DNA from: Trypanosoma brucei
Lineage: Eukaryota
Length of the DNA stretch: 64,000 nt
Reading direction: 5' to 3'
Assembly: GCA_000002445.1 (NCBI GenBank)
Contig: CP000069.1
Location: forward strand, 1,440,001 to 1,504,000
Made by a program: the position numbers and the translations under genes. Below, piece after piece: positions 8,010 to 56,575 of the stretch (positions within the stretch are counted from its first letter, which is position 1; the number at the start of each line of letters is the position of its first letter). The notes under the pieces were generated by a model that worked only from the letters and a program-made list of their open reading frames with translations, was not told the origin of the DNA and did not search any database.

Positions 8010-9695
8010 TTAAAACAGCAAGGCCGCAAATGCAGAAGAAACCACTAGGGCGAATTGTTTGTTTACTAGAATAGAGGAATCTTTGCACTCTTTTCCATCC
8101 CACTTACAATTCGGAGATTTGCATTCTTTCTCTGGTCTCCCTTTGCATTTCTCTGTTGTTGTTTCAGTTTCTACTCCCGTTTGAGTTTGTGGCAAAGAAA
8201 CTTCAGTTTTTTGTAGCTTTTGTTGCATTATATTTGCACTTTTTCTCTTCTGTGCTCTCTTTTTGAAAAGTACAGAAATCCTTGGAATCGCAGTTTGTAT
8301 CTGTTTCTATTGCTTCACACTCCTTTGCTTTTTCAGACGGCGTTGTAGTTTGCTGTTGGTTTGATCCATTGGTTTGCGCTGCGAAGGCTTTTGGTGCCCG
8401 TAGCAATGCTGTTGCCGTGGCGTTTAACAAGCTTATTTCTGCTTCTAGTGCGGCCAGCTTGATTTGTGTGTGGCGCTTGTCGTACACTTTTGCGGCATTT
8501 CGCAGATTTACTTGCCATTCAATTGGCGGCGTGCCGCCGATGATACTGCCATCGTTGTACTTTACGCAGCGCCCCGTGTGGCTGCCGCTTACGCCTTCGC
8601 CTGTACAGCCGCCGCTGCCGTTGCCTGTTGGTGTTTACGGCTTTGTATAAAATCACTAATCGGCTATTTAGAACAGCAGAACTTTTTTCGCCCGTTTTCA
8701 AGGCCGGTGGGCATTTGTTTGCTATGGCCAGGGCTTTTTCTCTGCCGGCCGTCGTCACATCCCAGTTGCCGTTGTTTGGGGGGGGGGGGGCTCTCATCAC
8801 ACCCTTTGCTGCATGTTTTGCCTCCGGTTGCTTCACTAGTGTGTCCGCAGCAGATGCAGAGCAAATCTGACAGGAGCGCCTTGCCGGCTTCCGTCCCTGG
8901 TGTTGCAGCACCCGTGCCGCACACCGCTTGTCTCGTTCCGGTAAATGTTAGTGTTGCTGCTTTCCCGGCAGAACCGTAAAGCGTTTTGTTTAGGTGGCCG
9001 TTTATTGCGGCTTTGTCGGTTCCTTTTGTCGTAGTCGCTGCAGCCTCTGATATAGTCAGTCCCTTATCGGCTATGAATGCCAATTGTCTTATGGCATCGC
9101 TGTTCGATTTTAGGACGCTAAACTGTTTTATCTTGTCTTTCAGGTTTTGAGGTGCGTCTTCCTGCACCGACTTAGTCCACGCCGTCCAGTGGTTTTCGTA
9201 AGGGGCGGCTTGTTCCTTGAAAGGGCTTTGCAATGCGCCCCATGCCTCTTCCTTTTTAGCTTTTGCAAGCGCCTGTATCGGTTCTGGAGCTAGAGAAAGG
9301 TTTATCGCCATTAGCTCTTCTGCAATGGTTTGAATGGTTGTTGCTGCTTGTACTTCCGGCGTATCTTCTCTTGCGAATTCGATGAGACCGCATAGAGCTA
9401 TGAAATCACCGCCGTTTTGTCCTTCCTTGACTGTCCCCTTTACGTTTTTGGCAAGTGTCGCAACTTCTAGCGTAATGACAGTCCAAAGTATGTTTTGGCG
9501 CATTTCCCCTGCAAGAACTCGGGCGGTCGGCAACTCCAGACATATTTTAGAAAAGAAAGTGGTGAAAATAGTGTGGTAATGTTTATATAAGCTCGAAAAC
9601 TTACCAACTATTGCAGTTCCTGGTGGTATAGCGACAACACTGTGGACCTTTGCGATTATTTGTCGCATCGGTTGCAGCGTTTCAACAATCCTCAT
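8010..9695 (-). pseudogene. VSG: VSG pseudogene (multiple frameshifts, degenerate N-terminus)
   Basis: Three ORF pieces in different frames: 8010-8228 (C-domain + GPI tail [13 protein letters not shown]), 8203-8487, and 8664-9695 (A-type N-domain). A G12 homopolymer at 8777-8790 sits in the gap between pieces. No recognisable signal peptide or ATG. Confidence 0.75.
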
Positions 9696-11184: not shown

Positions 11185-12651
11185 TTATAGAAGCAAAAAT
11201 GCAAGGAAAGTAGGGACTTTGCTAATGACAAAAGAATTGTTTCCTGTGGTATTTGTAGTTTTTCCATCATTTTCCATATTCACCCCCTCTTTAAGTTTGC
11301 ATTTTCCGTCTTTGTGTTCGCAGTCTGTGTCTGCAATGTATTTGCTTTTTTCTGTGTCTTCCTTGCATTTTTCTTTTTTAGTATCTGAAACTTCCTTTTG
11401 GGCTGTTATCGCTGATTTTTTCCGCTGTCGTCTGCTGTAGGAAAAAGCGAGTGTGGTAGCGAATTTTCCAGGCTTGTTTGTGTCTTTGATCGTTGTTTTT
11501 ACAGGGTTGTTATCATTGTCGTAAGTGATTTCCTCAGTTGCCAAGGGATCTACCAGGTCTGCGGTTAGAGTTGACTCTCCTGCCGGAAGTAGAGCCTTAA
11601 CTGCTTCGGTTTGGCTGGTGGCTTCTTCTTTTGTGTTGACTTTTCCTGTTGCCAGAAGCTGTGCGAGTGCCCTCAGGTTACCTTCGTTGGCTAGTGTCGT
11701 CTTGCTTTTCAGCAACGGCCGCTCGTATAATTTGATGTCTGCGCCACGGTGCCTGCAGATGGCATTTGCGACTTTCTTTTGTGTCGTTAAGTGAGATTTG
11801 CTGTCTGTGTCGGCGTCTACGCACCCCGATCCTGCTCCCTGTCCTTTGAATAGTGATTGCTTTGCTGGGTCCTCGTCCTCTCCCTTTTTCCTCGTAATTG
11901 ATTTAACGCCGAGTGCAACTGTTAGGCTCCTCAGGCTCGCGCCGCTGTCGCCGCTGGTTGCGCAGGCGCCTTTTTTGTACGAGCGGTGCGGCCCGCCGGT
12001 GCCTGCGTTACCTTGAGCTGCTACAATTAGTTCGTACTCTGGAGTTAAGAAGCGCTCATCTTTGAGTAGCTTGATGTTTTCAATTTCTTGGAGTTCTACA
12101 ACCGCTTTGTCTATGTGTGTGCCGCTGCCTGCTGCTTCGGTGCAGCTGTCGGTCGTTGACGGCCCTCGGGATGTCGGTATAGTGCAGTGCTCGCCTGTGC
12201 CGGCGGACAAAAACGTCTGCGTCGTCGTTGCTGGTGTTGCGACCTGCGTATCCACCGCGTCGCGTTCTGCATGGATTAGCGCTTTCGTTTGTGACACCCT
12301 TGCTTTCAGCGTCTTCACCAGCTCTGTTATTTGGGCTTCTCCGGCTGCTATTGCTGCCTCTTGCTTCAATTCGGCTTCTTTTGTTTCGGCAGAAAGTGCA
12401 ATGTACGCCGCTGCCTTCTGAGTGTCTTCTGTACACACTGCCGCGAGGGTCAGTAGGGAATAGTCGTTGCTTAGCGCTGTAGCCCTTGATCGTGCTGTTG
12501 ACAGTTTCCCTTTAAAGTTAGAGATGAGTTTCTCAAGGTACATTACTTCATGGTAGGGGGAAGTGACTGCTTCTATGGATGTCTCTGCTGCACCCCCAAA
12601 CATTGCCGGCAGCAACACAACTGTTTGCATTGCTAACAACACCGCCGTCAT
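11185..12651 (-). CDS. VSG: VSG, apparently intact (488 aa)
   Basis: Single ORF with a true ATG (cat 12649-12651). Signal peptide MTAVLLAMQTVVLLPAMFGGAAE. Cys-containing C-domain. GPI signal GNNSFVISKVPTFLAFLLL. 16-mer-like element ~80 nt downstream (11096-11112). Confidence 0.85.
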   Translation of the reverse strand: MTAVLLAMQTVVLLPAMFGGAAETSIEAVTSPYHEVMYLEKLISNFKGKLSTARSRATALSNDYSLLTLAAVCTEDTQKAAAYIALSAETKEAELKQEAAIAAGEAQITELVKTLKARVSQTKALIHAERDAVDTQVATPATTTQTFLSAGTGEHCTIPTSRGPSTTDSCTEAAGSGTHIDKAVVELQEIENIKLLKDERFLTPEYELIVAAQGNAGTGGPHRSYKKGACATSGDSGASLRSLTVALGVKSITRKKGEDEDPAKQSLFKGQGAGSGCVDADTDSKSHLTTQKKVANAICRHRGADIKLYERPLLKSKTTLANEGNLRALAQLLATGKVNTKEEATSQTEAVKALLPAGESTLTADLVDPLATEEITYDNDNNPVKTTIKDTNKPGKFATTLAFSYSRRQRKKSAITAQKEVSDTKKEKCKEDTEKSKYIADTDCEHKDGKCKLKEGVNMENDGKTTNTTGNNSFVISKVPTFLAFLLL

Positions 12652-15528: not shown

Positions 15529-16914
15529 TTAAAAAAGCAAAAATGCAAGTGTAAGAAGGGAAGTTTTAATAAGAAAAGAATTGCTTCCTGTGGTGTTTGT
15601 GGTTTTGCTATCTCCTCCATCTTTCTGCTCTGTCTTTTCTTCTAACTTTTTGGCCTCCTCTTTATTCAATTTGCACTTTGCATCCTTTCCTGTTCCCTCC
15701 ACTTTGCATGGTGGTTTACATTCATCTCCTGTTCCTTTCTTTTCGCAAGTTGTGTCTGTTTCTGTGATCTCAACAACTCCTGGAGTTGTTTGAGGCAGTG
15801 GTAAGGTCGTTCCCTCCGTGGCTAGCTTTGCTGCTTCGTACGCATTTCTTGCTGTCAGGGCTAGGTTTTTTAGCTGTTGTCGATAGTGACGAAGAGCTGC
15901 AGAAGCTGTTTGGCCAGCTTTTAGCTTTTCGATCGCATCCCTCATTTTGTTTTCCCAGGTTATTCCCGTCCCGGGTGTCTTTAACTGTGCGACGTAGTTT
16001 ACACAGTTTTGTTCGCTGGCGCCGTCGCATTGGCTGGCGCTGTACTTTCCAAGGACATATCTTATTTCGTCACCGGTTTCCCCGTTGGGATTCCGGCCCA
16101 GCATGCTGTGGAATATTGCTAGTCTGGCCTCGATTAGTTCCCCGGTTAGGGCTGGTGGTTTTGCCGGGGATTTGCAAAGGCTGATGACATGGGTTATCGC
16201 CTGCTGACCGGTATTACCGGCGCCGTCTACTTGTGGCGCGGTGGCGCTGCCGCACTCAGTGGTGGTGGCGGCCGCTTTGTTTGTGCAGAGGCAAATCATG
16301 TCGTCTAGTAAATTTTTTCCTGCCGCGCTATTACCGTTGCTGGTCGGGCCGCAGCTGTTTCTGCTGCCGCCGAAGTCGCCTTCTGTGTACTTGCTGTCTT
16401 TGTCGCCGTATATGGCCGTGAGTATATCTTCTATCGCTTTTGCGTGGCTTTCTGTCGCTGTCTTCTGGGCAGCGTCGTATTTTTCTTGTATTGCGTCCGT
16501 TTGTTTTATCAGTTGTGTTATTATCGCTTGCGCTGAGGCTTTTTGGGCTTTGTTTGTGAGTTTGGCGTATATTTGTTTGTTTTCATCTCCATGTTTTGAG
16601 TTTATTATCTCTGTTATGTGCTGTTGCCACGCTTTTAGTTTTGCCGCATCGTTCCCTTGCATCAGATCCTTGTATTTTCCATTCGCATCTTTTAGGAAGT
16701 CGTCATCTGCTACTGATACATTGAGGTTGTAGATTGGCGTTCTTAGCTCCGAGAAAGTCGCAGATGTTTCTTCGGTTGCTGGCGGGTCGGCCGCGTCTTT
16801 TAATGTGAACAAGTTGCATAGAGCGCCGAATTCAACTGCGTGCTGGTTCTTTGCAGCATTTGCATTCCTTAATAGTATACACAGAGCAAGAAATCTAATA
16901 ATTAACATATTCAT
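15529..16914 (-). CDS. VSG: VSG, apparently intact (B-type N-domain; ~461 aa from ATG at 16912-16914)
   Basis: The track ORF 15529-16947 begins at a GTG. The first in-frame ATG gives MNMLIIRFLALCILLRNANA (signal peptide), followed by AKNQHAVEFGALCNL. Cys-rich C-domain. GPI signal GSNSFLIKTSLLTLAFLLF. Confidence 0.85.
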   Translation of the reverse strand: MNMLIIRFLALCILLRNANAAKNQHAVEFGALCNLFTLKDAADPPATEETSATFSELRTPIYNLNVSVADDDFLKDANGKYKDLMQGNDAAKLKAWQQHITEIINSKHGDENKQIYAKLTNKAQKASAQAIITQLIKQTDAIQEKYDAAQKTATESHAKAIEDILTAIYGDKDSKYTEGDFGGSRNSCGPTSNGNSAAGKNLLDDMICLCTNKAAATTTECGSATAPQVDGAGNTGQQAITHVISLCKSPAKPPALTGELIEARLAIFHSMLGRNPNGETGDEIRYVLGKYSASQCDGASEQNCVNYVAQLKTPGTGITWENKMRDAIEKLKAGQTASAALRHYRQQLKNLALTARNAYEAAKLATEGTTLPLPQTTPGVVEITETDTTCEKKGTGDECKPPCKVEGTGKDAKCKLNKEEAKKLEEKTEQKDGGDSKTTNTTGSNSFLIKTSLLTLAFLLF

Positions 16915-17229
16915 ACCTCTTTCTTTATTTACTGCTATTCGTGGCACTACTTTTGTGTCACTTCAGCTTTGGTTAGGTGGCTGTCTGTGTAGGGTCACAG
17001 CTGGATACGTCGCTCAGGTTTTGTGGCGTTGGTTAAAAAAAGGCAGTAACAGATTTTTTGGCCAAGTGATATTACAAATTTTTTCCGCGCCTACACGAGA
17101 TTATCACATCTTTATTTTGTTCTGCCGCTTCTTACAATTCATTCGCCTAAAACAAATTCTTATCTCTTACCGTATAGACACAAATTCTATCATATTATAT
17201 TCAACATCTTCTCACATTCCGCATAAGTT

Positions 17230-18060
17230 GCAATTTTCTCCAAATATTCGGAAAAAACTGCCTTCCTTCAATCATTTATACCAAATAAGATTTTTCACAA
17301 TCAACTTCGCTTCCTTTTTACATGAAATAGGCTACCCTGGAAACGAATTAATAAAGCGTTTCCAATCACCACACTATTGGGAAGAGTAAAAAATCTCTCT
17401 TCATAATCGAATCCAGTCATTCCACCTCCTCAAAACAGATCTCTGCCCAACATTTTCTTCTTCGATTGCACTCCAAATGAGAAAATGTTTGTAAATGCTT
17501 TGCTCTGCCAACTATTCCTCACTTCCTCTCAGCAATTCTCCCAATGCATATTCAAATTTCTTAACTGCCATACTTTTGCTATTAAACAACCACCATTAAG
17601 GTAATATTTTACACTAGGAGGTGATTTCAGTAAATGAGGTAATTTTCTATCTTTCTTTTCTTTTCTGTAGCCAACATTAAAAAGCCAATAACATCTCTGC
17701 ATATGCTTCTTGTGATCTGAGTTCATAAGCAAATCCAACTGAGAAGCATAACATTCTGATGTTGTTATGAATAAAATAGGGGAAATATGCTTCTCTTTTA
17801 CTATATCTTCTCCACTAAATTTATCTTCATTATCAGCAGTATTTTGTGTAAAATATTTACTGCACTCTCATACTTCTCTTTCCATCAGAAACAATAACAT
17901 CAGACCCATCCAAATGAATTACAATATCCTCATCACTTGCATTATGTCTCTCTAAAATTTTCATAGCCCATCTAGGCCTTTTGACGTGACTATACAAACC
18001 TTCCATTGCAATTGTAATATTTTCAACATGACTTGATTTGGCGCTCAATATAAATCAGCC
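17230..18060 (-). other. Paralogous coding-like block copy A (unknown degenerate gene) immediately upstream of a VSG
   Basis: ~75-85% nucleotide identity to 54880-55610. Minus-strand peptides are conserved between copies: DLLMNSDHKKHMQRCYWLFNVGYRKEKKDRKLPHLLKSPPS vs DLLMNSDHRGHVEGCYWFFNVSYRKEKYKKIPHLVKSPPS; GFDYEERFFTLPNS vs GLDYEERFFSILNS; LYSHVKRPRW vs LYSHVKRPR*. Confidence 0.55.
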
Positions 18061-18699
18061 TACACTGTTCTTGAGTTGTATGAGTTTGTACAACAGCCAG
18101 AAGCACTTTGGGCTTCTTATGATCGTTATGTATTATATATTTTTCTTATTTTTTGCTATTGTATCTTGTGTGAGTGATATTTAACTTAAACAGGTCAAGT
18201 ATAATGGCAACAGTAATAGTCATGCTATAAAGGTAACAAATTTTATTTTTTAATCCACTTTTCAGAATAAATAGGGTTATTAGAAAAAATTGAAAATCTC
18301 GAGAATATGGGAAATTCTATCACAAGGTATATTTTAATTTTCGAAATTTTTACAAGTTTAATTACAAAATATACAGCTCTTTATCTAAATTTAAAACATC
18401 AATATTATGAGTTTCAGTGGTTTTTATTGCTGTTGGTGACGTATAAGCTCCAGCGGTATGTCTACTGCACTTCATCTTACCATCATTTTACTTCTAACAT
18501 ATTTCTGTGCATAATGCCTATCATCATAACTGTGTTTGAATGTGAGCATGCTCAAATTACATTCTTCTACCTTTCTTTGTACTTTTCTTTTAATAATATT
18601 CTTCTTGTCCTTTCTCATTAATCTCATATTCACACTGAAACCTCCCCATCTTTTTTATTGCTTCTGTATCTTCCATTCATTTAGTAACCACCACCGCCG

Positions 18700-18800
18700 T
18701 CAAAAATACTTGTACATTTACACTCACAGCTCCTTCCTATCATTCTTATTTTTTTTCCACATTTTTTAAATTAAAACCCCAACTAATATCCATAAGATAA
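18700..18800 (-). repeat. Degenerate 70-bp-repeat remnant plus conserved adjoining block
   Basis: cactcacagctccttcctatcattcttatt, then aaccccaactaatatccataagataaac...gcacgcatttttcataccctatcactctactac, the block seen beside most 70-bp repeats in this window. Confidence 0.4.
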
Positions 18801-19053
18801 ACATAATAAAAAATAGACCGAATGATAATAGCACGCATTTTTCATACCCTATCACTCTACTACTTTACACTCACAGACAATAATCATACACAGTTTACTA
18901 TAATTTCATCTCTTTTAGATTTTATAAAGTTTAGCAAATTCTCAAAAAAATTTTCATACTTTTCATGTGGCTGAGCAAAAATCATCATAATTTTAAAATG
19001 CTAAAGTTCTACCAAACTCATAAAGACAGCAGAAGTCAGAGCATATTTCTTAT

Positions 19054-20600
19054 TTATAATAAAACTGAAAGAGCGGAATTAACTTCCTCTTTATCACTCT
19101 CACTGTCACCTCCCTTTTTCCAGCCACAATGCTTTTTGCCATTCTTGTTTGCATCCTCACAAGCTTGTTGGGTTAAAAGTTTGCTGCAGTCAGGTTTTCC
19201 ATCTTTTCCTTCTGTTTCTTGGTTTGCTTTTTTCGCTTCTTTTTTGGCTTCCTTGCTCAATGTGCACTTTTCACCATCTTTGCCGTCTTTGTTAAAAACG
19301 CATTCCTTATCCTTAAGTTCCTTACATTTGTCTTTGTCATTTCCTGCTGCATTGCATACTTTCTCCTTGTCTTCTGTTGGTTGTTGTTGCTTTGGCTTTT
19401 GTGCCTCTTCTAGTTGCTTTTTCAAGGACTGCATATTCTTAAGGAGCTCTACATCATAGTAGTATTGTAGTTTCTCCAGTTGCTCTATGTCCTCTATTTC
19501 CCCTAACATCTTGTCCGCATGTAATCCTGCCGTTTTGGCGGGTATTTTTTCGCGGCTTATAGCATCTTCTGTTTCTCTTATTTTCTCTGGCGTGTCATCT
19601 TCAAAAATCTTTTTTATCTCGGCGCTGATTTTGGTCGGGTCGGCTATACTTCCGTCATCTAAATTGATTGCCAATAAACATTTCAGCTCGCCTCGTTCAG
19701 ACGGCTTGCCTGTTTGGTTAATGAAGCCGGTATTGCTGGCGCTTTTTAGATTCGTGATTTGTTCATGTGCATCCTTCCACGGTTTTGTTTTGTCGTCCCC
19801 CGTGTGTGTTAGGTCAGTTTTGCCAGTAAAGCTGCTTATACCAGCGTTAGTCGCTAGCTTCAGATAGTCGGCCATTGCAGTTGGGGTCCCATCCGGGCTA
19901 GTTTGTGCCCATCCGTTTGTGTTGTGGTATAGGAGGATGTTGCAGTGTCCTGTTGCTGCTGCTGGCGCGATGTTGTTGCCGCTGTTTGCGCCGTGTAGTA
20001 GGGTTTCGTAGCCGTTGCGTGTCACTAGTTTTGCGCTGTAAGGCGCCGCTGTCGGATCGGGGGCCGCGAGTCTGCAGAGTTTGTCGCCTAAGTTGTCTTG
20101 CTGCCGGGCAGCTGCAGTGTCTGCGTTTTTTCCTTGCAGCAGGCAGATGTTGTTCGTTCCGTTGACACTGTCAAGTAGTGCCATGAAATCGTCGATGCGT
20201 CCTTTCAGATAACTAGTGCTAGAAATTTCCGCCACGTGGCTTCCAACTATGGTAGATTCATATCGATTTAAGGATCCTGCCGCCTGTGTGGCGTAGTAAG
20301 CTTTTAACGTTATGGCTTTCCTAGCCAACGAGTTGTATTGGTTTTTTGCGGCATAAATGCTTGCCCGTGCATTCGCTTTCTATAGTGTTTGGATGTGGTT
20401 TAGCATTTGTTTGGTCTCGTGATGGACGCCGCCTGTTACCTGACCTAATTCTGTTAGTACTGCGCATATTGGTTCCCATGCTGTGTTTGATAGTCAACCG
20501 TGCCCCGCATCTTCCGATTGTTTGCTTGTGTGTGTTAAAAAACAGAGGAATACGCACACCAATGCATCGCGTCTTGTCTTTCCTTGCGAAATCTTGATCA
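19054..20600 (-). pseudogene. VSG: VSG pseudogene (A-type; in-frame stops at the N-terminus, degenerate C-terminal tail)
   Basis: ORF 19054-20328 begins at TTG, not ATG. Extending the frame upstream gives ...LSNTAWEPICAVLTELGQVTGGVHHETKQMLNHIQTL*KANARASIYAAKNQYNSLARKAITLK with TAG at 20380-20382 and TGA at ~20497. Architecture parallels the intact VSG at 40781-42244 (TTWEPLCQVSEELDG...). The C-terminus ends ...EVNSALSVLL without a typical GPI hydrophobic tail. Confidence 0.75.
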
Positions 20601-24295: not shown

Positions 24296-25949
24296 TTCTC
24301 AAAATGCTACCCAAATCACAAAAGCAGAATCCGTACTCAGAACTAACTTCTTATTGATGAGAAAATTACCATTTTGATATTTAACTTTGTCTTTCCCCTC
24401 TTAGCTATCTTTGCCCTTTCTCCATGCAAATTTTGTTTATCGCCTGTTTTGTCATTTTCACAAGCCTCCTTATTGGCTCCATTCCTTGCACATCCAGTTG
24501 CTCCTTCTCCTCCTGAAGCCCCATATTCTGTTCCTGCTTCATTTTTCTGAGTTGTAACATTACTTTCATCTACTTTAAAGGTGCCAGGTTTTTCATCAGT
24601 ACCTTCTCATTTGCACTTTTCTGCGTTTTCGCATGCGGTTTTATTGTTTTTGTGCTGTTCGCATTCTTTTTTTCTGCGTTAGAAATTTCCACGTGTTTTC
24701 TTCGTGCTTCTAGAGTGGCATGACGACAGCTGTAAAGAGCTTCTGTGTACAGCGCTCCCATTACACCGGCAAGAGATATGAGCCGAGACTGTTGTTGTTG
24801 TTTCTTTGCTGCTAACGCTCGTCTGTTGATCAGAAAGCTGCGTACCGATAACAGCTTCTCCACCCATTTAATCGCTTCCAGTGGGTTGGACCTGCTTCCA
24901 GCTCCGGCTAATACCGCGGCGTAACTAATGCACACATCCGCCGTGCTATGGTCACCACTACACTGCTAGCTGCTGTCTTTTCCTTTGCCGTAGCGGTATG
25001 TGAAGCCGTCGTTGGCGCTGCCTTTGTATCGGCAAAGTGTTGACCTGAAACTTTGCAGCAGGTTGTCTATGTTGGCTACTTACAGTGCCTGTTTGTTGCC
25101 TTTGAGAGCACACAGCCCTAGGATCTCTGTCAGCGCTGTTCCTGCAGTGCTTTTTCCGCTGTATTCAAGTGCTAGAGCTGTGAAAGTGTTGTCTGTTGAG
25201 TCACATATTTTTGGCCCTGTGCCTGCTGCCTGGCTGGACGCAGCTACGCTGCACAAGCACATCATATCTGACCCTAGTGTGGCGCCGGCTGCGCTTGCTG
25301 ATGATCCGCACGCCGTGGCGTAGTTTGCTTGAAATGTGTAAGTTCCGTGTGTATCTGTGTGCGCTCTTGTCACGGCAGTGTCAGCGCCGTATAGCGCTTC
25401 ATGGGCTTCCTTTGTGATTGTGGTTTGCTGGGCTGTTATTGTTTGCTGTGCCGTTGCGGTCGCGGCATGAAGATTTGTGGCAATGGTGTAAAGCCTGTCA
25501 AGCTTGTGTGCTGTTTCTTCTGGGAAATCTGTGCGATGTTTGCACGTATACTTGTCAACGTGCTGGCCCCTGGGGCCAGCCACTTTGAGGTTTGTGAGCT
25601 CTTTGCGCGTTGTTCTTGCCAAGTTTGGGTCGTATTCCATGATTTTACCTTTGCCGGTGGGTTGGTCTTTTTCACCTACGACAGGACCCTCGTCGTAAAA
25701 TGTTTCATTGCTTGTCGCGATGTAAATCGCGTGGATTTCCTTCCATGCCGTCAAATAGTCCTGTTCGAGGTCGGTTGCTGTTGCATCCTCTAACTTGGCA
25801 CCTTTTAGCATGTTGGCTATCGCGAAGAATATGTTAAGTTCGACTGCATTCTCGTCGTTGTTTGTTGGCATCGCGAGCTGCGATACCTCTATCGCTAGGC
25901 AAAAATACCTAATGGAGATCATTCCGGTTACACCTTGCAGCAATCCCAA
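24296..25949 (-). pseudogene. VSG: VSG pseudogene (B-type N-domain; multiple frameshifts)
   Basis: 25080-25949 B-type N-domain (DMMCLCSVAASSQAAGTGPKICD), track start is TTG. C-domain and GPI tail (NFLINKKLVLSTDSAFVIWVAF*) are recoverable only in shifted frames at 24296-24600. Confidence 0.7.
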
Positions 25950-31523: not shown

Positions 31524-33094
31524 TTAAAATTTTACTAAACTAACAAAAGCAGCAGCCATCTTAGCCAATTTCTTATCTACGAGAAAACTGGAATCTTTGC
31601 AAGCATTATTTTCCCATTTGCAGTTTCCAGTGCAATCTTTCTGTTGTTTGTCCTTGCAATCTGAAGAAGTTTGGGTCCCTGCTTGGGTTGCTTGTTGTTC
31701 TACTGCTGTTGTATTCAATTCACAGTGGTTTCCTGTTTGTTCAGTTTCTTTAGTCCATTTGCATTTTGTGTTTTTTGTGCAATCTGTTTTTTCTCTAAGT
31801 TCTTGCACTCTTTTTCGGCTTCTTCTTGTTGTTTTTTTGAGTCACCTGATGGTGCTTGAGCCGGGTGTGCTGGCTTTGGTGTTGGTTGTTTCAGGGCTTC
31901 CATCGCGTTTAGGCTTAGCAGTGTTGTTAGCGTCTGGTTGAGCGCGTGTATTTGGGCTTCAGCGGCTTGTATATTTGCAGTGTCGCCGGCGGCGGCTTCT
32001 AACTTTGACGCTGCTTCATCTATTAGTGCTAGCCAGCTGGGCTCTTCTATTGCTGTTCCGCTTGTCGCGAATGACGCACATGCCCCTGCGTTGCTGCTCT
32101 CTGTTCCGTCGCAGCTGCCGCTACCGTCGCCTGTCCTCGTTCCGAGAAAGCCCCAGTGTGTTCCGGCGCTGCCCTTGGTTGCATAGAGGTCTGCTTTGAT
32201 ACCTTGTAGCAAATGCCGTAGGCGTTGCGGGGTCAGCGCTTTGCCAGGCGGGTTTGCTGTTTTGCAGTGGGCCTTCATTGTTGTCTAGTCTGTTATGGCG
32301 GTGTTACTGTTCCAGTCTCTCTGCTGTGTTGTTTGGGTGTGGTAACACGCCTTGTTGTTTGAGCCGTCGTTGGCGCAGAGGCACGCTATGGTCGCTGCGA
32401 TTGTCAGTTTCGCCGACGTTCCCGGGGTTGACTGAGCGTTGCCGCAGTGCTCCGTCCGGGAGCTGCCCGCCCCTTTGAGTGCCGCTGCGCTGGTCACTGC
32501 CCCGTCGCCGTAAACCGCTTGTTTCAGCAGCTGCTTTGCGGTTTGCCTGCCATCGGCTGCCTTTTCCTCGCTGGTGCGCTTGCTAGCCTGCACGACGGCG
32601 AGGGCTGTCATATTGATTAAGTTCTTGAAACCCCGGTCATCGGTGGCCGCTTTTGTTACTGCTGACTTCTGGTCTGCTGTAAGCGCTTTGTAGTAAAGTG
32701 CCGCCGCTTTGCAGGTTTGCAGTTTTGTGCCTTTGCAAGACTCCGGTGCTTTGTCGTCTGTCAAGGCGTTTATCTCCTCTGTTGTTTTTGTTTCGCCGAT
32801 GGTTTGCAGTGCCGCTGTGTTGTTAAGGTACAACGCCAGGTTTTCTGCGCCTGTTACCGCCTTTTGTGCAGCGGCCGCTAGTGTCACGGGTTGGCTATCT
32901 TCTTCCTCTGCCGCCAGCACCACACCGCACAGTAAACCAAATATCTTTTTGTTTTCTCCTTTGGCTGGCTCCGCTGCTTTGCAGTCCATTTTCAGCAGTG
33001 ATATTGCCAGTGTTACCGCTACTATCAGCATTGATTGGTTTAATCGCTGGCCTAGACTTAGCTTCAGTGTCGACTTCGGCTGCTGTCCTTGCAT
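31524..33094 (-). pseudogene. VSG: VSG pseudogene (B-type; one in-frame stop ~32279-32284 and one frameshift ~31715-31808)
   Basis: 32285-33094 (ATG at 33092-33094, signal MLIVAVTLAISLL; CLCANDGSNNKAC); 31715-32278; 31524-31808 (C-domain + GPI tail DSSFLVDKKLAKMAAAFVSLVKF). Confidence 0.8.
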
Positions 33095-44348: not shown

Positions 44349-45145
44349 TTTTCTTCGTGCCTTCGTGGGAGTTTCCCCCCACTGGCGCGGCCATCAGCCA
44401 TCACCGTAGAGCCCTGAGATGCTATCGGTCTGGCGACTGTGGCAGAGTCTCCCTTTTTTATTCATCCTAACACACCCTCTATAATTTTTGTTGTAGCTCC
44501 GCAGTTGAACGGAATACAGCAGATGGGGCGAGAAGCCCCCCTCACCCCGGACTCTCCCAAAGATGTCAATTAGCAATCCTTTTGTTTTGATTTTTGTTAT
44601 TCGTTTATTATTCTCTTCCCCTCTTTCTGTTTCTGTTGCTTGTTGATTGCATACCCCCTCTGTCTCTGAGGGTGTCTGGACTATTCCTGCGTCCGGTGCT
44701 TTTCCTGCTGGCTCCACACTCGGCAATAAGGGGGGAAGTTGCAGAAGGGAAAGTGGGTTGTATGACTTTTACCTTAGGTGAGGACTTCACCTGTGGCCGG
44801 CTCCGTTCAACCGCAATGAGAAACTGTGCCAGCCTTTTAGAGAAACATACATCCTGCACACACACACCTTCTACCGCAAACCTGACACGTAACTCCTTCA
44901 AACCGGGACAGCTCATCAGGTGCAGCGACGTTTCTTCGCAGTCGCCGCGTTGGCTCGTAACAGTGCGCTCTGCTCCCATACCGTGCATCTTCTTTTGATG
45001 TAGGGTGAGGCCAGTTTTGCTAGCACACTGCCTTCCGCCTGTCTGGCACACCAACATGGATGTGTTTGTATGCGGGGAATCAGTGGCACCCAATTTTGTG
45101 ATTTTGCTGCATTTAAGCTCGACTCCCTCACCTTAGTGGAAAGCC

Positions 45146-45706
45146 TTACAGTGTCGGATGAGGGAGGCCCCGCAACTGAGCACTTTTTTGGCACACACCA
45201 CACTGCACCTCGCCCTTCCCCGGGACGTCAACGTTTCCCTCACGGGCACGCTTACGAGGGAATTGCACCAACACCACGGTACCGTCCTCCGTCACTATGC
45301 TTTTATGTTTGAATTTCTTGTGTAGTGACAGGGAAGAGTGTGTACCGAAGCTCGCCTCGCACAAGTCACATTGAAACGGCAGCTTCCGTGTATCCTGAGA
45401 GGCTGGCGCTGTTGGGACGCTACCATCTCCTTGCAATGAGTCTTCGTTCTCTCGCCCCCTTTTCACGCGGCAACTACCGCTGCCTATGCCATGTATTGTT
45501 CTAAGGTGGTGTAGTAGTCGGGCTGGCACTGCGAATTTGGAGGCACAGATGGTACAATGAAGCACCTGCGGTCTCATCGGGACTCGTGTGCTCGATGGTA
45601 GAGGAACGATCGCCACCACTGGAGGGGGCTCCGGGGGGGATGTCCACTGCGGGTGTTGCATCGCCGTATTTGATCCTCCGGAGGGCATCAGCTCGCACAA
45701 AGCCAT
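45146..45706 (-). pseudogene. ingi ORF fragment: C-terminal C2H2 zinc-finger region
   Basis: HCTICASKFAVPARLLHHLRTIHG and FQCDLCEASFGTHSSLSLHKKFKH. Confidence 0.7.
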
Positions 45707-47942
45707 GTTTGTTTACCATATGCGTTACAGCACTCGAGCGGCATTGGTATGTGGCATCACATTCCGTACATTTGGTCGGTTCGGAGGTTCTTTGAAGAGT
45801 GCGTGTCGCAACAGGTGGGGCCGTTTGTATTGTTGGCCCTATCGCTGCATGTTGCGGGTTGCACCATCGGCACTGTGGAGGCACACTCGGGTTGATCTTT
45901 CGCAACATCCATCCATAGTGTCTTGAAGACCCAACCCGAAAGCGTGCCAGTGCTGTTTCTTCTTCCCTCGTCAGTTCTTCCTTATGTTTTGTTGGAAAGT
46001 GGTTGCCCGTGATACCAAACCTATGAGTGTTCTCATGGACTTCTTCCGACCTAAGCACTCGCTTCGCATAAGCAATGATGTCGGGGATCCATGTGTCTCG
46101 CAACTGTGGTAAATCTGCGGCCTTTTTGGCCATTTCATCGCAAACCTCATTCCGTTTCATGCCACAATGGCCAAACACAAATTGCAGTCGGATACACACC
46201 TTTCTTCTCTGAACTTGAAGCAGAAGCCTCCATAGTCGTCTTAGAATTGGGTCCGTTACGGCTAGGGGGCCTGTCTGCAGTGCTGTTAACATTGACAGCG
46301 AGTCAGAGAAGATGGACAACCTGCTCGGTGTGCTTCTGTATGCCGGAAGCCATTTCAGCAGCCTTTGCAGTCCTATCTCTAATGCTACGCATTCCGCTCT
46401 GTAACTGCATGAGAGTTCCCCTGCTCCTGTCTTGGGTGCGCAAATCAGCGTGTTGTTTCTGTAGAGCAGGGCAGCTGCTCCGGACTTCTCACCGAGGGAC
46501 ATGGATCCATCAGTCCACAATTCGTAGTGCTCTCGCCGCGGTGGCTCCTTCCCCCTCCGTGCAAAATGCCGTTCAATCCACTTTTCGGAAGCCTCCCTTT
46601 TGACATCGTCAGGGTCATCAGCGCACACAGGCTTTATCTGCGTGTGAAATATCGGTCGGCAGCTGTGGCGGAGCGTCGATGTCTCTAGTGGGTGCTCGCG
46701 TGGCTCAATGCGGAGGTGGGGGTAGGACCGCATGATGCGGGAATGTAGGACTCTGACTGGATGTTTGCTGTGGTATACTTCTTCAGCACTGCGCCGTAAA
46801 CATCCGCCTCGTGACTCACACATCAGCATGAATTTCATGCTGCGCACAAGAGTGGTCGTCTTGAGTGGCAGGAGGTTTGCTTCCAGCAGAGAGTCCTCTT
46901 TGCGCGTCCCATGCGGTATGCAAGCTATGATGCGACTGGCTTTGTGTTGTGCTGCTGCAAGGAGGTCGCGACTTCGTTCCGAAGTGTCCCAGTACCATAC
47001 CTCAATGCCATACATGGTGTGTGCCTGTACGAGTGCTAGATAAAAAGCTCTCAGTACTTGTCTTCTTGGCTCCCATGTAGAAGCTGAGATGGCTGCTATC
47101 TGCAGTAGTCGGAAGTCCATCTTGCGTCTCGTTTCTGCAGCATGTGTTGCCATCCCCTGCAGACACTGGAATGTTACTCCTAGAAGCTTCGGTGTCCTGT
47201 CAGCTCCTATTCTTTTGCCGTCCAGTTGTAATGTAAGGGGGTGGCGCTCTATAAACCCGAAGAGTGTGCACATTGTTTTCGCTACATTGACAGACATGAA
47301 GTACTCTTTTGACCACTGTAACACCACGGTTAGGCCGCATTGTAGTGTGTGGTTGATGACATCCCTCTCTGTGTGCCTCGCAAGTAGCGTCAGGTTGTCT
47401 GCAAAGAATCCGTGCTGCAGTAACGGCACTTCTGCAAGGCATTGGCTCAACGAGTTCATGACAATAATGAACATGATTGGACCAAGGACAGTTCCTTGTG
47501 GCACTCCTCGCTCAAATGTTCTGCTTCTGGAGAGCTTCTCCTTGAATCTCACTCTGCCAGTTCGGTTACTCAGAAATGATACGCACCACTTCACAATGTG
47601 GGGTGATACCTTCATTCTGTGCATTTCCCTCGCAATTTTGTCGTGGTCTACTGTATCAAATGCCTTCTCGTAGTCGACGAATACAGCACCCGTACGATAT
47701 TGGTGCGTGGGGCGGCAGAGGGCAGCGCGGACGTGCAGGAGTTGTTCGAGCGTTGAGCATCCGGGGCGAAAGCCTGATTGCTGCGGCGTCAGCTGGAACT
47801 CAACAGTGTCTCTAAGCCTCGTGGCAAATATGCGCTCCATGACTTTGCAGAGACAGCTCGTGAGCGTCACAGGCCTGTAAGAATCGAGGTCCTCCGCCTT
47901 TTTCCGGCCTTCAGGATGGGGATGATAACACCAGTCTTCCAT
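45501..47942 (-). pseudogene. ingi ORF fragment: reverse transcriptase domain
   Basis: 813-aa ORF with RT motifs (…GPIMFIIVMNSL…, QHGFFADNLTLLARH). Confidence 0.8.
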
Positions 47943-49090
47943 GCAGGCGGCACGACTCCCGTTCGTAGGCTCTCATTGAATAGCCTCACAACAACATTCA
48001 GCGCTGTTCTGCCGAGATGTTGCAGTGCCTCGTTGTATAAGCAATCAGGTCCGGCTGCGGATCCACTAGGTAGCAGTTTGATCGATCTCCGTAGTTCAGC
48101 CATCGTGATGGGACTGAACTCACTCGCTATCGTCTTTATTGGTGCCGGTGGGTGTGAGTCGGGGTGCCTTCTTGCGCGGGAAGAGTACAGTTTACTGAAC
48201 CTCTCAGCTTGACGGTAGTCCGTGATGGCCGCGTTATCAACAAGTACAGCCGGTGTGGTTAGTGGTCGTGGCGCATATACCTTCTTGACAATGTGCCAAC
48301 TGCAGCGGTCTGACACCGCAAGTCTGGAGCATAGCGTGCTCCATCTCTTCTTTGTGGTACGGTCCAGGATCTGCTTACGCGTGGCTACCAACTTTTCCCT
48401 TCGGTGGGAGGGTCCGCATCCAGCGATCTCTTCATCGAGTTTCGCGAGCTCAGGTGTCCAATGTGGTGGCGTTGCTCTGCAGCCACGGGGGACGGAGACC
48501 TTCGTCGCAATGCGGATGGCGGAGCTCAATTTCTGTTCCAGGGTCTTGACGTTCTTCTCTCTACCAATTTTCCTGCAGAGCTCGTCAACCTTGAGACGGA
48601 AATTCCTCCAGTCAGCTTTTAGCCATGCGTACATGGGCTTTCGAAGCCGCGGGCAGCTCAGTGCATCTGTGTCGTCTCCAAAGATAACGTCGAAAAATAT
48701 GTGATGGTGATCGCTATCGGGAGAATACAGCGATGTCCACGTGTACACTGTGCAATTCCTTGACAGTGTCACATCAGGGGTGGACTCCCCGTGGTGGCGC
48801 GCGTACCTGGTGCACTCACCAGTGTTGCAGACCAGAAACTGGTTGTCAATGCACCACTGTGTGAGGGTTTCACCCTTGGTATTTGGTGGGCTCGCGCGAT
48901 CCCATGCCAACGCGTGTGCGTTAGCGTCTGCACCGATGAGCTGGGCACCGTCAGTCGTCAGAAGCGTATCTAGGTCAGTTGCCGTGAAGGTGTGTTTTGG
49001 TGGGATGTATGCCGACGTGACAGTCAGCGCCGTTCCACGTGCAAGGTGAATTGTTGCATGCACTTTTTCAATGCGACCAACAACGGCCAT
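47867..49090 (-). pseudogene. ingi ORF fragment: AP-endonuclease domain
   Basis: Separated from the N-terminal segment by a stop and from the RT segment by a frameshift at ~47867-47942. Confidence 0.75.
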
Positions 49091-52800: not shown

Positions 52801-53129
52801 CGGTATATTACTAATGTCCGTAAAAGAAATAAGATAAAAAAATTAGAATGGCACTCATTTTTAATACCCTATCACACTAATAATTTGGAGCCATAGGTAC
52901 GTACATACCAAAGTTTCCGATTTTTAATTCTTAAAATTTCCGAAAAATTACCAATATTAACAAAAGTGTTAAATATATTAAATTTCAAAAATTATAAAAA
53001 TAAAAAAACATTCATAAAATGCTACAAACTCACAAAAAAATCCATCAGAGCCAATTTTCTATTCGCAAGGAAACTGGGATCTTCGCATTTTTCTTTAATT
53101 CATCCGCAGTTGGCTTTTTTGCCGGGTTT

Positions 53130-54596
53130 CTAACCATCATTCTCCTTTTCACAGTTTGCTTTGTCTTTGTGTTTTGTGCACCTGTCTGAGGGTGCTGTTG
53201 TTCCTCCCGATTGCGTTTGTGTTACAGGGACGGCGTTTTTATTAGCTTTGGTTTCATTAAATTTGCACTTTTTATCGTCGGCGCTGTCTTTTTGATAAGT
53301 ACAATAAAGGTTGGCGTTGCAGTCAGTATCTTTCGTTATTCCTTCGCATTCTTTTTTCTTGGCTTGAGTCGATTCTGCTGTCGCTTCTGCTGCCTTCGAC
53401 GCGCTTTCGTCCTTTCCGTCTGTCTGCTGAGCTGCTGCTGTCGCTTCTACTTTGTCCGCTATGTTGTACGCAATTTTTAGGTTCATTTCAATTGCTTTTT
53501 TGAGGGTTTCTTGATGTTGTTCTGCCTTCTGCTTGCGATCCAGTAGGTCGGCTGCTTGCATGACGGCTGTGGAAAATGTTAGTTCCGGCCATTTGTCGGC
53601 GTGTGCCGTTATTGTCGTACTGTACTTGACGCAGAGCCCGGTATCGCTGGCACCGTCGCAACCGCCGTTTGCTGTCCAACCTAGATAGCCGGCATTGTTA
53701 TGGATGGTGACCGCTGAATGCAGGTCCTGCAGAGCCGCCCGCAGGGCCGAGGCCGTTGCGTGGAGCGTTCCGCTTGTACTGCACTTCTGTCGCACTTTGT
53801 CGTAGGTTGCTTTGGCTCCGCTGCCTCCTGCACTCCACTTGTCCGCCCCTTGCGAATTGCGGAGTGGCTTTGGGCCGTCGTTGCCCCCTTGCTTTTCCAG
53901 CACAAGGCACATCGCCACATACGCTAGCGGGTTGTGATTTTGGATTTTGCCCTCCTGCGCGCATGCCGTGACTGTTGCGGCACCGTTGTCGGTCCCGCTA
54001 TTTGTTGCGAATTTGTCTCGGTCTTTTGTTTCGCCGTAAATGGCTTCAGCTAGTTTGTCGGCTACCGCTTTTTGTTTGCCTGCCTCTATGTCGGCCGCCT
54101 CCATTTTCAATTGATTGTTTAGTTCCAGCGTAGTGTTCAGAATTTGGTTCATTTTTGTTGCTGCTAATTTTCGCGCTCTTTCGGCAAACTTGTTGAGCTT
54201 GCTGGCCTTGATTCTCTTGGCTGCGTCGTTATTTCCTTCAAGCATGTGCCGTGCATCTGCCCAGCCCTGCCAGCTGTCTTCCCCATGTGGGAACGCCGTT
54301 TTGGCATGGTTGGGTTTTTCTTTCCACGTGAGGTTGTCTTTTCCCTTTTTTAGAAACAGCTTCTGCCATGCAGGGTCGCTTAGGCTCATATTAAGCGCCG
54401 CTAGTTCTGCCAGATCCTCTTCAGCAGTCACCTGCTGGCTGTCAGGTGCCGATCCTTTTTCCTGTAGCTGAATCAGCTTACACACCTTTGCAAATACATC
54501 CGCGTTGGCGCCTTCTGGTATCGCCAGCATCTTAGGGAAGCTCGTGGCGAGCACAACTACCGCGACTAGAGCAGATTTAACATTTTTTTTATCCAA
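53130..54596 (-). pseudogene. VSG: VSG, full-length uninterrupted ORF (488 codons) but initiator codon is TTG (probable ATG->TTG point mutation)
   Basis: Reading frame from 54596: TTG GAT AAA AAA AAT GTT AAA TCT GCT CTA GTC GCG GTA GTT GTG CTC GCC... = (L/M)DKKNVKSALVAVVVLATSFP, a signal peptide. No in-frame ATG upstream (GSNNNNSRCGD precedes). The only nearby ATGs are out of frame and hit stops. The rest is an intact B-type VSG with Cys-rich C-domain. Confidence 0.6.
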
Positions 54597-54879
54597 GTCC
54601 CCGCATCGGCTGTTGTTGTTGTTGCTTCCGATACCTTTTCCAAAATTTTGGATATTTACCTGATATAGTTGACGCTGCTATTTTGGACATGCCGTGAATC
54701 TGTTTGGTAGTTTTTTAAAATTTAAAAGCTTTGGGTCTTGCCGCCGGAGTTAGACTTAGCAATATTTTAAAAACTTTTTAGTTGTAAACAAAGCCCCTTC
54801 CATAAACCCATCACCACAATTTTTTTATATTTAAAATCCAACTTCTTTCTACTTATTGAAAGAGTTTGAATTTTACCCA

Positions 54880-55610
54880 ACTCTTAAAACTAAACTTCCT
54901 TCCTTCCAAATATCCATACCAAGTAAGATTTTTCACAATCAATTTGGCTTTTTCTTCCCATTCAATTGGCTGGTCAGCAAAATAAGTAAACGACACTTCT
55001 CTAAACTCTCTACTATTGAGAATAGAAAAGAATCTCTCCTCATAATCTAACCCAATCATTCCTCACTTCAAAACAAATCTTTGTCAAACAGCTTCTTTTT
55101 GAGTTGCACTACAAATAAGAAATGGCTTGTAAATACTCTTATCTGACTGCCATTCCTTACCTCCTTTCAATAACTCTCCAAATGCATATTAAAAAATTTT
55201 TAAGTTCTCAAACCCTAGCTATTAAACAACCACCCCTAATATACGGATTTGCCACTAGGAGGTGATTTCACCAAATGAGGTATTTTTTTATATTTCTCTT
55301 TCCTGTAACTGACATTGAAAAACCAATAACATCCCTCCACATGCCCTCTGTGATCTGAGTTCATAAGCAAATCCAACTGAGGCGCATAACACTCTGATGT
55401 TGACGTGAATAGAATATTACACAGCGGTTTCATATTTTTGACGGTAGGAAACAATAACATCAACTCATTCACTGTTATAACAATATCCTTATTACTTGCA
55501 TTCTGTTTTTCTAAAAATTCCGTAACTCATCTAGGCCTCTTAACATGGCTATACAAACTTCAGATCGCAACTGTAACAATTTCAAGATGAATTAGTTTGT
55601 CACTCAATAT
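54880..55610 (-). other. Paralogous coding-like block copy B, immediately upstream of the VSG at 53130-54596
   Basis: See copy A (17230-18060). The two are in the same position and orientation relative to their VSGs. Confidence 0.55.
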
Positions 55611-56444
55611 GAGTCTACACCATCCTTGAGTTGCATGAGTTTGAACTACAACAACAAACGCTCTTGGTTTCTTATGCCCATTCTCTTTCATTTTTGTTTC
55701 GTTAATTCACCATGTTGAAAAGCTATTGGGTACAAACACACCAAAGATAGCAGCAAGAGTAATAGTGAAGCTTCAAAGATACCAGGGTTCATTCCCTAAT
55801 CTACCATTAAAATTTGAAAGGATTATAAGAAAAAATATAAAATTAAGAAAAAGAGACGGTTGTGATACTACGGTGTTTTTTTAATTTGTACTGTGTTTGC
55901 ATATATGAGCAATTCCTTGATATTGTTATAATAGATGTGTTTATGATTGTATGCTTATTATCTGCGCTTTATGTTTGAGTGTGAATTCATTTTTTTAGTA
56001 GTTAGCTTCAGCCACACATAGCTCTGCACACTAAATTATTTTATCTCTTCATTGAACTCACATTTCCACTCCATGCATTGCTATAGAAATTAAGGCAGCT
56101 AGTTGTAATAGTTATTGGTTCAGAAATACTAAGATTTCTGCTGGTGGATGCGTTACCTACAACAATCATCTAATTTTATCATGCACGTTCCATCACTGTG
56201 GATACGTCAGAGGTTCCATTTTTACTGAGCCTGGACTCTGTTTCTCCCATATTGTCCTTCAATCATCTTGTTTATTATAATTCCAATATTCATATTTGTT
56301 TTTGAAACTGTGCTTTTTCCATTTCTTTCTCTTTATCTGCATTTTTTCTTTCTTGTGAAAATATTCCTGTTCCTCTTCCACTCACTCATGCTCACTTATA
56401 CTCACTCAGTTTACACCCTTTCTATTGTTGTAAGTGATTTTATT

Positions 56445-56575
56445 TTGTATTATTATCATTATCATTAATACTTTTATGAAAATAGTAGCTTATACATACT
56501 CACAAAACCTTTTTCCAAAAATAATCATTATCATCTTTTTTCTTTACAGTTACTATTATTCCCATTAGTCTATCC
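56445..56575 (-). repeat. Degenerate 70-bp-repeat remnant plus conserved block
   Basis: ttattatcattatcattaatac...cttatacatactcacaaaacc...tatcctggtatccataaaataaac...ttcatttttcatatcctatcactctgacac. Confidence 0.45.

What the first reader, a model, noticed from the sequence alone, without database searches (positions are those of the whole stretch)
17230..18060. Paralogous ~0.8-kb coding-like block immediately upstream of two VSGs (one intact, one disabled only by an ATG->TTG start change)
17230-18060 and 54880-55610 are ~75-85% identical. Substitutions preserve several peptide stretches on the minus strand (DLLMNSDH..CYW.FNV.YRKEK..K.PHL.KSPPS; G.DYEERFF...NS; LYSHVKRPR). This suggests a shared degenerate gene rather than neutral spacer.

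Both copies sit in the same position and orientation directly upstream of full-length VSGs: 15529-16914, and 53130-54596, whose only visible defect is the ATG->TTG start. I could not see this block upstream of the other cassettes.

I do not recognise the product. It may be a VSG-array-associated pseudogene family, or a relic of an expression-site-associated gene copied along with these two VSGs.
Basis: seen in the sequence. Interest (0 to 1): 0.5.

Follow-up and report, generated by a model that had tools for sequence, protein, structure and literature searches.

The report
Two decayed ESAG3 pseudogenes beside VSGs
The two similar blocks are broken copies of ESAG3, a known trypanosome gene whose dead copies are already known to litter the silent surface-antigen gene arrays, so the finding is real but ordinary.

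Summary
The similarity is real. The product is ESAG3 of Trypanosoma brucei (E=5e-68). Copy 1 is 18246..17150 (aa 1-363, 8 frameshifts, 6 stops, ATG->ATA). Copy 2 is 55792..54774 (aa 1-367, 7 frameshifts, 6 stops, 78-nt deletion). Both have lost residues required for ESAG3's glucosyltransferase activity.

They are the only two copies in the window. Each lies between a degenerate 70-bp-repeat remnant and a B-type VSG.

They are not the product of one cassette duplication. The two VSGs are 25% identical, the flanks do not align, no disabling lesion falls at the same site in both, and the copies are not sisters in a tree.

The VSG at 53130-54596 also has two in-frame stops before its GPI signal, so the TTG start is not its only defect.

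The window is T. b. brucei TREU927. ESAG3 pseudogenes in VSG arrays, and between the 70-bp repeats and the VSG in expression sites, are published. Verdict: already known, low interest.

The parts
17150..18246 (-). ESAG3 pseudogene, copy 1. It covers ESAG3 aa 1-363 of 368. The start codon is ATA instead of ATG. There are 8 frameshifts and 6 in-frame stops. The DXXD motif is retained, but W242 is L, H297 is S and W345 is V.
   Evidence: ESAG3 hit, E=5e-68; frameshift-aware protein-to-DNA alignment, 67.7% aa identity; catalytic residues; start codon read from the sequence.
54774..55792 (-). ESAG3 pseudogene, copy 2. It covers ESAG3 aa 1-367. The ATG is retained. There are 7 frameshifts, 6 in-frame stops and a 78-nt deletion (about aa 128-150). 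D110 is N, W242 is Q, E244 is D, Q245 is K, H297 is Y and W345 is L.
   Evidence: 65.7% aa identity; 78-nt gap in the DNA alignment.
15529..16914 (-). Intact B-type VSG directly downstream of copy 1, about 220-235 nt after the end of the ESAG3 homology. It is 100% identical to an annotated T. b. brucei TREU927 VSG.
   Evidence: VSG_B, E=4e-66; GPI signal; P0061, 100% identity.
53010..54596 (-). B-type VSG pseudogene directly downstream of copy 2, about 175 nt after the end of the ESAG3 homology. It has TTG in place of the start codon, two in-frame stops in the C-terminal domain and a damaged GPI signal.
   Evidence: VSG_B, E=1e-59; C-terminal domain matched only at 1-68 of 104; translations.
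18706..18748 (-). Degenerate remnant of a 70-bp repeat upstream of copy 1. It lies between the 3' end of the preceding VSG (19054-20328) and the ESAG3 pseudogene.
   Evidence: profile hit, E=0.11, below significance but at the position expected in a cassette; sequence.
56473..56537 (-). Degenerate remnant of a 70-bp repeat upstream of copy 2. It lies downstream of the preceding VSG's 3' UTR 15-mer (56755).
   Evidence: profile hit, E=0.55, below significance; sequence; 15-mer position.

Best explanation
Both blocks are non-functional pseudogenes of ESAG3. They lie in a silent subtelomeric VSG array of Trypanosoma brucei brucei TREU927.

Intact ESAG3 is a GT-A-fold, Mn2+-dependent O-glucosyltransferase that modifies VSG and is co-transcribed with it in bloodstream expression sites. 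That function comes from the literature and was not tested here.

Each pseudogene spans almost the whole 368-codon gene, carries 13-14 frame-breaking lesions and has lost catalytically required residues. Neither can encode the enzyme (shown).

Each sits between a decayed 70-bp repeat and a B-type VSG. This is the stretch that would be copied together with the VSG if gene conversion started at the 70-bp repeat (position shown; the consequence is inferred).

The two copies are separate, old offshoots of the T. brucei ESAG3 lineage. They are not products of one cassette duplication (shown). I infer that they are passengers of the frequent recombination that moves ESAG3 sequences between telomeric expression sites and subtelomeric arrays, and that they have since decayed mostly neutrally.
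For: **Identity**
- The conceptual translation hits ESAG3 (P0001, 368 aa) at E=5e-68 against 5.8 billion proteins.
- Most of the other cluster members are named ESAG3 by their depositors.
- tblastn and a frameshift-aware alignment cover aa 1-363 and 1-367 at 67.7% and 65.7% identity.

**Subfamily**
- BLASTP identity to expression-site ESAG3 proteins is 58-67% for full-length members. It is 20-30% to the other full-length family representatives.
- In an NJ tree both copies branch inside the ESAG3 lineage, below the expression-site crown group. That crown is monophyletic without them in 100% of bootstraps.

**Pseudogene status**
- Copy 1 has 8 frameshifts and 6 stops. Copy 2 has 7 frameshifts and 6 stops.
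- W242, H297 and W345 are lost in both copies, and D110 is N in copy 2.
- D110N or W242A alone abolishes ESAG3 activity in vitro (bioRxiv 10.64898/2026.01.27.701950).

**Independent origin**
- The copies are sisters in 0.5% of bootstraps.
- They share 14 non-ESAG3 residues, against 60 and 59 private ones.
- No disabling lesion falls at the same site in both.
- The VSGs are 25% identical, and the flanks do not align beyond about 47 nt upstream of the start codon.

**Context**
- The 70-bp-repeat profile finds about one site per cassette on the minus strand across the window. Weak remnants lie upstream of each pseudogene.
- The source organism follows from a 100% identical TREU927 VSG.

**Literature**
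- Most subtelomeric ESAG3 copies are pseudogenes, and ESAG3 sequences are thought to transpose between subtelomeres and telomeres (PMC6152948).
- ESAG3 pseudogenes lie between the 70-bp repeats and the VSG in BES7 and BES15 of strain Lister 427 (PMC2567434).
Against: - The 70-bp-repeat remnants upstream of the two pseudogenes are below significance (E=0.11 and 0.55). Placing the pseudogenes inside the cassette therefore rests partly on where a repeat is expected.
- The NJ tree uses conceptual translations of badly decayed sequences on long branches, so their exact branching order is uncertain.
- A protein-guided codon alignment gives dN/dS of about 0.37 between the copies. That would suggest past constraint, but this alignment is biased towards amino-acid matches. 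The DNA-only control is not significant (p=0.077).
- No ESAG3 coding DNA was available here, so nucleotide identity to functional ESAG3 genes was not measured.
Confidence: 0.95

Rival explanations
1. The two ESAG3-pseudogene-plus-VSG units are duplicates of one ancestral cassette. The pseudogene was already dead and was copied together with its VSG.
For: - Both copies have the same orientation.
- Both lie at a similar distance from a VSG start codon: about 220-235 nt for copy 1 and about 175 nt for copy 2.
- Both downstream VSGs are B-type.
- Both copies share the G216C change.
Against: - The VSGs are only 25% identical (E=0.24).
- The intervals between ESAG3 and the VSG do not align.
- No frameshift or stop falls at the same site in both copies.
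- The copies are no closer to each other (53% aa identity) than to expression-site ESAG3 (66-68%).
- They are sisters in 0.5% of bootstraps.
Confidence: 0.03
2. The blocks are copies of a dispersed repeat or retroelement (ingi, RIME or DIRE), or of a generic spacer upstream of VSGs. On this view their coding-like appearance is incidental.
For: - The window does contain an ingi-like element at about 44600-49700.
- Array VSGs do share upstream repeat sequences.
Against: - Only two copies exist in 64 kb holding about 15 cassettes (nhmmer; tblastn).
- Homology to ESAG3 runs the full length of the gene at E=5e-68.
- The block translations had no match in Pfam, which includes the reverse-transcriptase and endonuclease families.
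Confidence: 0.01
3. The blocks derive from the divergent GRESAG3 (ESAG3-like) paralogues found in chromosome cores and subtelomeres, not from ESAG3 itself.
For: - The copies lie outside the tight expression-site ESAG3 crown group.
- They share a few residues that differ from expression-site ESAG3, for example C216.
- The literature reports about 50 intact GRESAG3 genes in T. brucei.
Against: - Identity to expression-site ESAG3 is 58-67%, against 20-30% to the nearest other full-length family representatives.
- The tree places both copies on the ESAG3 side of the split.
- The protein library clusters sequences at 50% identity and carries no names. I could not confirm which representatives are T. 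brucei GRESAG3.
Confidence: 0.04

Closest known systems
ESAG3 (expression site-associated gene 3; cell-surface phylome Fam53) of Trypanosoma brucei, and its subtelomeric pseudogenes
   Same: - Homology runs the full length of the gene: aa 1-363 and 1-367 of 368, at 58-67% amino-acid identity.
- The signal-peptide region, the GT-A core motifs and the conserved stretches (LYSHVKRPR, DLLMNSDH, LDYEE) are all recognisable.
- A location in a subtelomeric VSG array matches the published statement that most subtelomeric ESAG3 copies are pseudogenes (PMC6152948).
   Different: - Neither copy is an intact gene. Each has 13-14 frame-breaking lesions and has lost W242, H297 and W345. Copy 2 has also lost D110.
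- They are much more diverged than expression-site ESAG3 genes are from one another. Those genes all fall in one 90%-identity cluster.
ESAG3 pseudogene located 3' of the 70-bp repeats in bloodstream expression sites BES7 (VSG 427-3) and BES15 of T. brucei Lister 427 (Hertz-Fowler et al. 2008, PMC2567434)
   Same: The order is the same: 70-bp repeat, then ESAG3 pseudogene, then VSG (for the expression sites; for the window).
   Different: - The units here lie inside a silent array of about 15 cassettes, not at a telomere.
- Their 70-bp repeats are single degenerate remnants, not long tracts.
- I could not compare the DNA sequences directly, because no expression-site DNA is available through these tools.
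Human LH3/PLOD3 glycosyltransferase domain (GT-A fold)
   Same: - Intact ESAG3 shows weak sequence similarity to the LH3 GT domain over aa 44-118 (PDB 6wfv, E=0.029; Pfam GT_PLOD, E=0.005, below the curated cut-off).
- The published cryo-EM structure superposes on LH3, with an equivalent DXXD motif.
   Different: This is relevant only to the ancestral enzyme. The two window copies are dead, and the sequence-level similarity is below family thresholds.

Membership tests
ESAG3 (Fam53, ESAG3 in the strict sense) | Significant sequence homology along the whole ESAG3 protein | tested here: met
   E=5e-68. Aligned over aa 1-363 and 1-367 of 368 at 67.7% and 65.7% identity.
ESAG3 (Fam53, ESAG3 in the strict sense) | Closer to expression-site ESAG3 than to the divergent GRESAG3/ESAG3-like lineages | tested here: met
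   58-67% identity to full-length expression-site ESAG3 proteins, against 20-30% to the other full-length family representatives. The NJ tree places both copies on the ESAG3 branch. Caveat: the representatives carry no names.
ESAG3 (Fam53, ESAG3 in the strict sense) | Intact open reading frame of about 368 codons | tested here: not met
   Copy 1 has 8 frameshifts, 6 stops and ATG->ATA. Copy 2 has 7 frameshifts, 6 stops and a 78-nt deletion. Both are therefore pseudogenes of the family, not functional members.
ESAG3 (Fam53, ESAG3 in the strict sense) | GT-A catalytic residues: DXXD (D110/D113), W242, E244/Q245 and H297, as defined in bioRxiv 10.64898/2026.01.27.701950 | tested here: not met
   Copy 1 keeps D110, D113, E244 and Q245 but has W242L and H297S. 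Copy 2 has D110N, W242Q, E244D, Q245K and H297Y.
ESAG3 (Fam53, ESAG3 in the strict sense) | [quoted passage not shown] | tested here: not met
   The window is a tandem array of VSG cassettes, each with a 70-bp repeat, all on the minus strand. These are array copies. Transcription cannot be tested with these tools.
VSG (the flanking genes) | VSG N-terminal domain, C-terminal domain and GPI-anchor signal | tested here: met
   15529-16914 has VSG_B at E=4e-66 and an intact GPI signal. 53130-54596 has VSG_B at E=1e-59, but its C-terminus is interrupted by two stops, so it is a VSG pseudogene.
VSG cassette of a silent array | 70-bp repeat upstream of the VSG | tested here: inconclusive
   The other cassettes give profile hits at E<=5.7e-5. 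The two cassettes with ESAG3 pseudogenes give only E=0.11 (18748-18706) and E=0.55 (56537-56473).

The most novel reading that the evidence does not exclude
The ESAG3 pseudogenes might not be inert passengers. They could serve as alternative upstream homology for gene conversion of their VSGs into expression sites.

- Expression sites carry two or three ESAG3 copies, and BES7 and BES15 have an ESAG3 pseudogene just upstream of the VSG.
- The two cassettes with pseudogenes have the most decayed 70-bp repeats in the window, so such homology could compensate for that.
- Hertz-Fowler et al. noted that recombination breakpoints in expression sites coincide with ESAG3 loci.

My evidence does not exclude this reading, but it gives no positive support either. 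The copies are highly diverged, which argues against efficient homologous recombination.
Probability: 0.04. Interest if true: 0.45.

Novelty: already known. Interest (0 to 1): 0.1.

Why it matters
It matters little beyond correct annotation. ESAG3 was recently reported to be the O-glucosyltransferase that modifies VSGs. Its dead copies are a known feature of T. brucei subtelomeres.

Two small points may be useful. The arrangement of 70-bp repeat, ESAG3 pseudogene and VSG seen in two Lister 427 expression sites also occurs in silent TREU927 array cassettes. This fits exchange between arrays and expression sites. Also, the two array copies are old, independent lineages rather than recent duplicates.

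Tried and rejected
- **Pfam on the raw frame translations of both blocks.** No hits even at E<=10. ESAG3 itself has no Pfam family above threshold.
- **My first guess from the '...NSDH' motif.** I suspected the C-terminus of an AP-endonuclease domain from an ingi/DIRE retroelement. The ESAG3 hit rejected this.
- **Fetching genomic DNA.** I looked up an ESAG3 protein (P0010), the intact VSG and its database twin (P0061). None is on record. I therefore could not measure nucleotide identity to functional ESAG3 or compare with expression-site DNA.
- **Searching with ESAG3 itself in the word-indexed protein database.** It returned only its own cluster. The exhaustive representative search was needed to obtain outgroups.
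- **Selective constraint between the copies.** A protein-guided codon alignment gave dN/dS of 0.37. I consider this biased. The DNA-only control shows only a non-significant third-position excess.
- **Link between ESAG3 pseudogenes and B-type VSGs.** Both linked VSGs are B-type, but three other B-type VSG fragments in the window have no pseudogene upstream. With two cases this is not significant.
- **Homology beyond the gene.** There are about 47 nt of weak similarity just upstream of the start codon, plus the generic region around the 70-bp repeat. Nothing aligns between ESAG3 and the VSGs.

Full report
**1. The observation**

BLASTN of 16900-19500 against the window finds two collinear matches. 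17226-17778 matches 54863-55416 at 75.1% over 558 nt (E=7.7e-100). 17888-18121 matches 55448-55676 at 75.6% over 234 nt (E=3e-41). This is far beyond chance.

The identity is lower than the stated 75-85%. It is 71.6% over 1001 aligned nt globally, and only a few 60-nt windows reach 80-85%.

**2. What the blocks are**

Pfam found nothing in the raw translations. A conceptual peptide from copy 1, searched against 5.8 billion proteins, hit one cluster at E=5e-68. Its representative (Q26748/AAA63784, 368 aa) is mislabelled 'variable surface glycoprotein'. Most of the other 14 cluster members are named ESAG3, from T. b. brucei and T. b. gambiense.

I then ran tblastn and my own frameshift-aware protein-to-DNA alignment.

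| | Copy 1 | Copy 2 |
|---|---|---|
| Window coordinates (minus strand) | 18246..17150 | 55792..54774 |
| ESAG3 residues covered | 1-363 | 1-367 |
| Amino-acid identity to ESAG3 | 67.7% | 65.7% |
| Start codon | ATA | ATG |
| Frameshifts | 8 | 7 |
| In-frame stops | 6 | 6 |
| Other | none | 78-nt deletion |

**3. Which branch of the family**

An exhaustive phmmer search with ESAG3 over 1.84 billion representative proteins returned 46 relatives. The two conceptual translations are 58-67% identical to full-length expression-site ESAG3 proteins. They are only 20-30% identical to the next full-length representatives.

In an NJ tree rooted on those representatives, both copies branch on the ESAG3 lineage, below the tight expression-site crown group. 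That crown is monophyletic without them in 100% of 200 bootstraps. The two copies are sisters in only 0.5%. They are therefore old offshoots of ESAG3 in the strict sense. Long branches make the exact branching order uncertain.

**4. They cannot work as genes**

A 2026 preprint (bioRxiv 10.64898/2026.01.27.701950) reports that ESAG3 is a Mn2+-dependent, UDP-glucose-specific O-glucosyltransferase for VSG. It has a GT-A fold resembling LH3/PLOD3. Its active site comprises D110/D113 (the DXXD motif), G215-G216, W242, E244/Q245 and H297. D110N or W242A alone abolishes activity. My own checks agree weakly with the LH3 link: PDB 6wfv at E=0.029 and Pfam GT_PLOD at E=0.005, below its cut-off.

Mapping these residues onto the copies gave the following.

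- **Copy 1:** keeps the DXXD motif but has W242L and H297S.
- **Copy 2:** has D110N, W242Q, E244D, Q245K and H297Y.
- **Both copies:** have G216C and have lost W345.

Together with 13-14 frame disruptions each, this rules out an active product.

**5. Context**

The window is a head-to-tail VSG array on the minus strand.

- A 70-bp-repeat profile built from seven good units finds about one significant site per cassette. The sites are at 6846, 10928, 14015, 22271, 28079/28159, 31253, 34890, 37516, 40569, 50160, 52809, 59359 and 62603.
- In the two cassettes of interest it finds only sub-threshold remnants: 18748-18706 (E=0.11) and 56537-56473 (E=0.55) (sequences).
- Each pseudogene therefore lies between a decayed 70-bp repeat and its VSG.
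- The end of the ESAG3 homology is about 220-235 nt (copy 1) and about 175 nt (copy 2) upstream of the VSG start codon.

Both downstream genes are B-type VSGs.

- **15529-16914** is intact. It is 100% identical to an annotated T. b. brucei TREU927 VSG, which identifies the source.
- **53130-54596** has TTG in place of ATG.

**6. How far shared ancestry extends**

It extends essentially no further than the ESAG3 gene.

- The VSGs are 25% identical (E=0.24).
- The intervals between ESAG3 and the VSG do not align. Upstream, only about 47 nt next to the start codon and the generic 70-bp region show weak similarity.
- No frameshift or stop falls at the same site in both copies.
- Across 324 codons aligned through ESAG3, the copies share 14 non-ESAG3 residues, against 60 and 59 private changes. 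That is a star-like relationship.

One cassette duplication is therefore rejected.

**7. Constraint**

A protein-guided codon alignment gives dN/dS of about 0.37 and a third-position excess. That alignment favours amino-acid matches. On a DNA-only MAFFT alignment, with frames assigned separately for each copy, differences per site are 0.247, 0.219 and 0.315 for codon positions 1, 2 and 3 (p=0.077). The conserved peptide stretches mostly reflect limited divergence from a common gene, not continuing selection.

**8. Comparison with what is known**

[quoted passage not shown] - In Lister 427, BES7 and BES15 carry an ESAG3 pseudogene between the 70-bp repeats and the VSG (PMC2567434). This is the same order as here.

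From my own knowledge, not checked here, the TREU927 annotation already lists many 'ESAG3, pseudogene' features.

**9. Verdict**

The thing itself is ordinary and already described.

The most novel reading still open is that such pseudogenes act as alternative recombination anchors where the 70-bp repeat has decayed. I give it about 4%. The copies are highly diverged, and nothing here supports it positively.

Noticed in passing
window 44600-49700 (minus strand): An ingi-like non-LTR retroelement interrupts the VSG array. ORF 45501-47942 carries reverse-transcriptase and RNase H domains. The overlapping ORF 47867-49090 carries an endonuclease domain, which implies a frameshift between them.
   Followed up: partly
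window 18706-18748 and 56473-56537, compared with the other 70-bp repeat sites: The two cassettes that carry an ESAG3 pseudogene have the weakest 70-bp repeat matches in the window: E=0.11 and 0.55, against E<=5.7e-5 for the other cassettes. This may mean they are old cassettes. With only two cases it could be coincidence.
   Followed up: partly
window 11185-12651 and 59710-61113 (minus strand): Two VSG-length ORFs (488 and 467 aa) have no Pfam N-terminal VSG domain hit even at E<=1. 11185-12651 has a typical VSG C-terminus and GPI signal; 59710-61113 shows neither that tail nor a blastp match to the other VSG ORFs in the window. The first is probably a VSG with an N-terminal type that the Pfam models detect poorly; the second is unresolved.
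   Followed up: partly
window 19054-20328 (minus strand): The A-type VSG just upstream of ESAG3 pseudogene copy 1 starts at TTG and matches the Pfam A-type profile only from position 77. It appears to be an N-terminally truncated VSG pseudogene.
   Followed up: no
window 15529-16914 and 53130-54596, compared with 8664-9695, 25080-25949 and 32285-33094: Both VSGs linked to an ESAG3 pseudogene are B-type. So, from memory, is VSG3 (427-3); it is the ESAG3 substrate in the 2026 preprint and, in BES7, also has an ESAG3 pseudogene upstream. Three other B-type VSG fragments in the window lack the pseudogene, so the association is not significant here.
   Followed up: partly
ESAG3 codon 216: window 17586-17588 and 55226-55228: Both pseudogenes carry the same G216C change (TGT) in the glycine-rich loop of the GT-A active site. 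It could be an ancestral state of array-type ESAG3 lineages or a parallel change.
   Followed up: no
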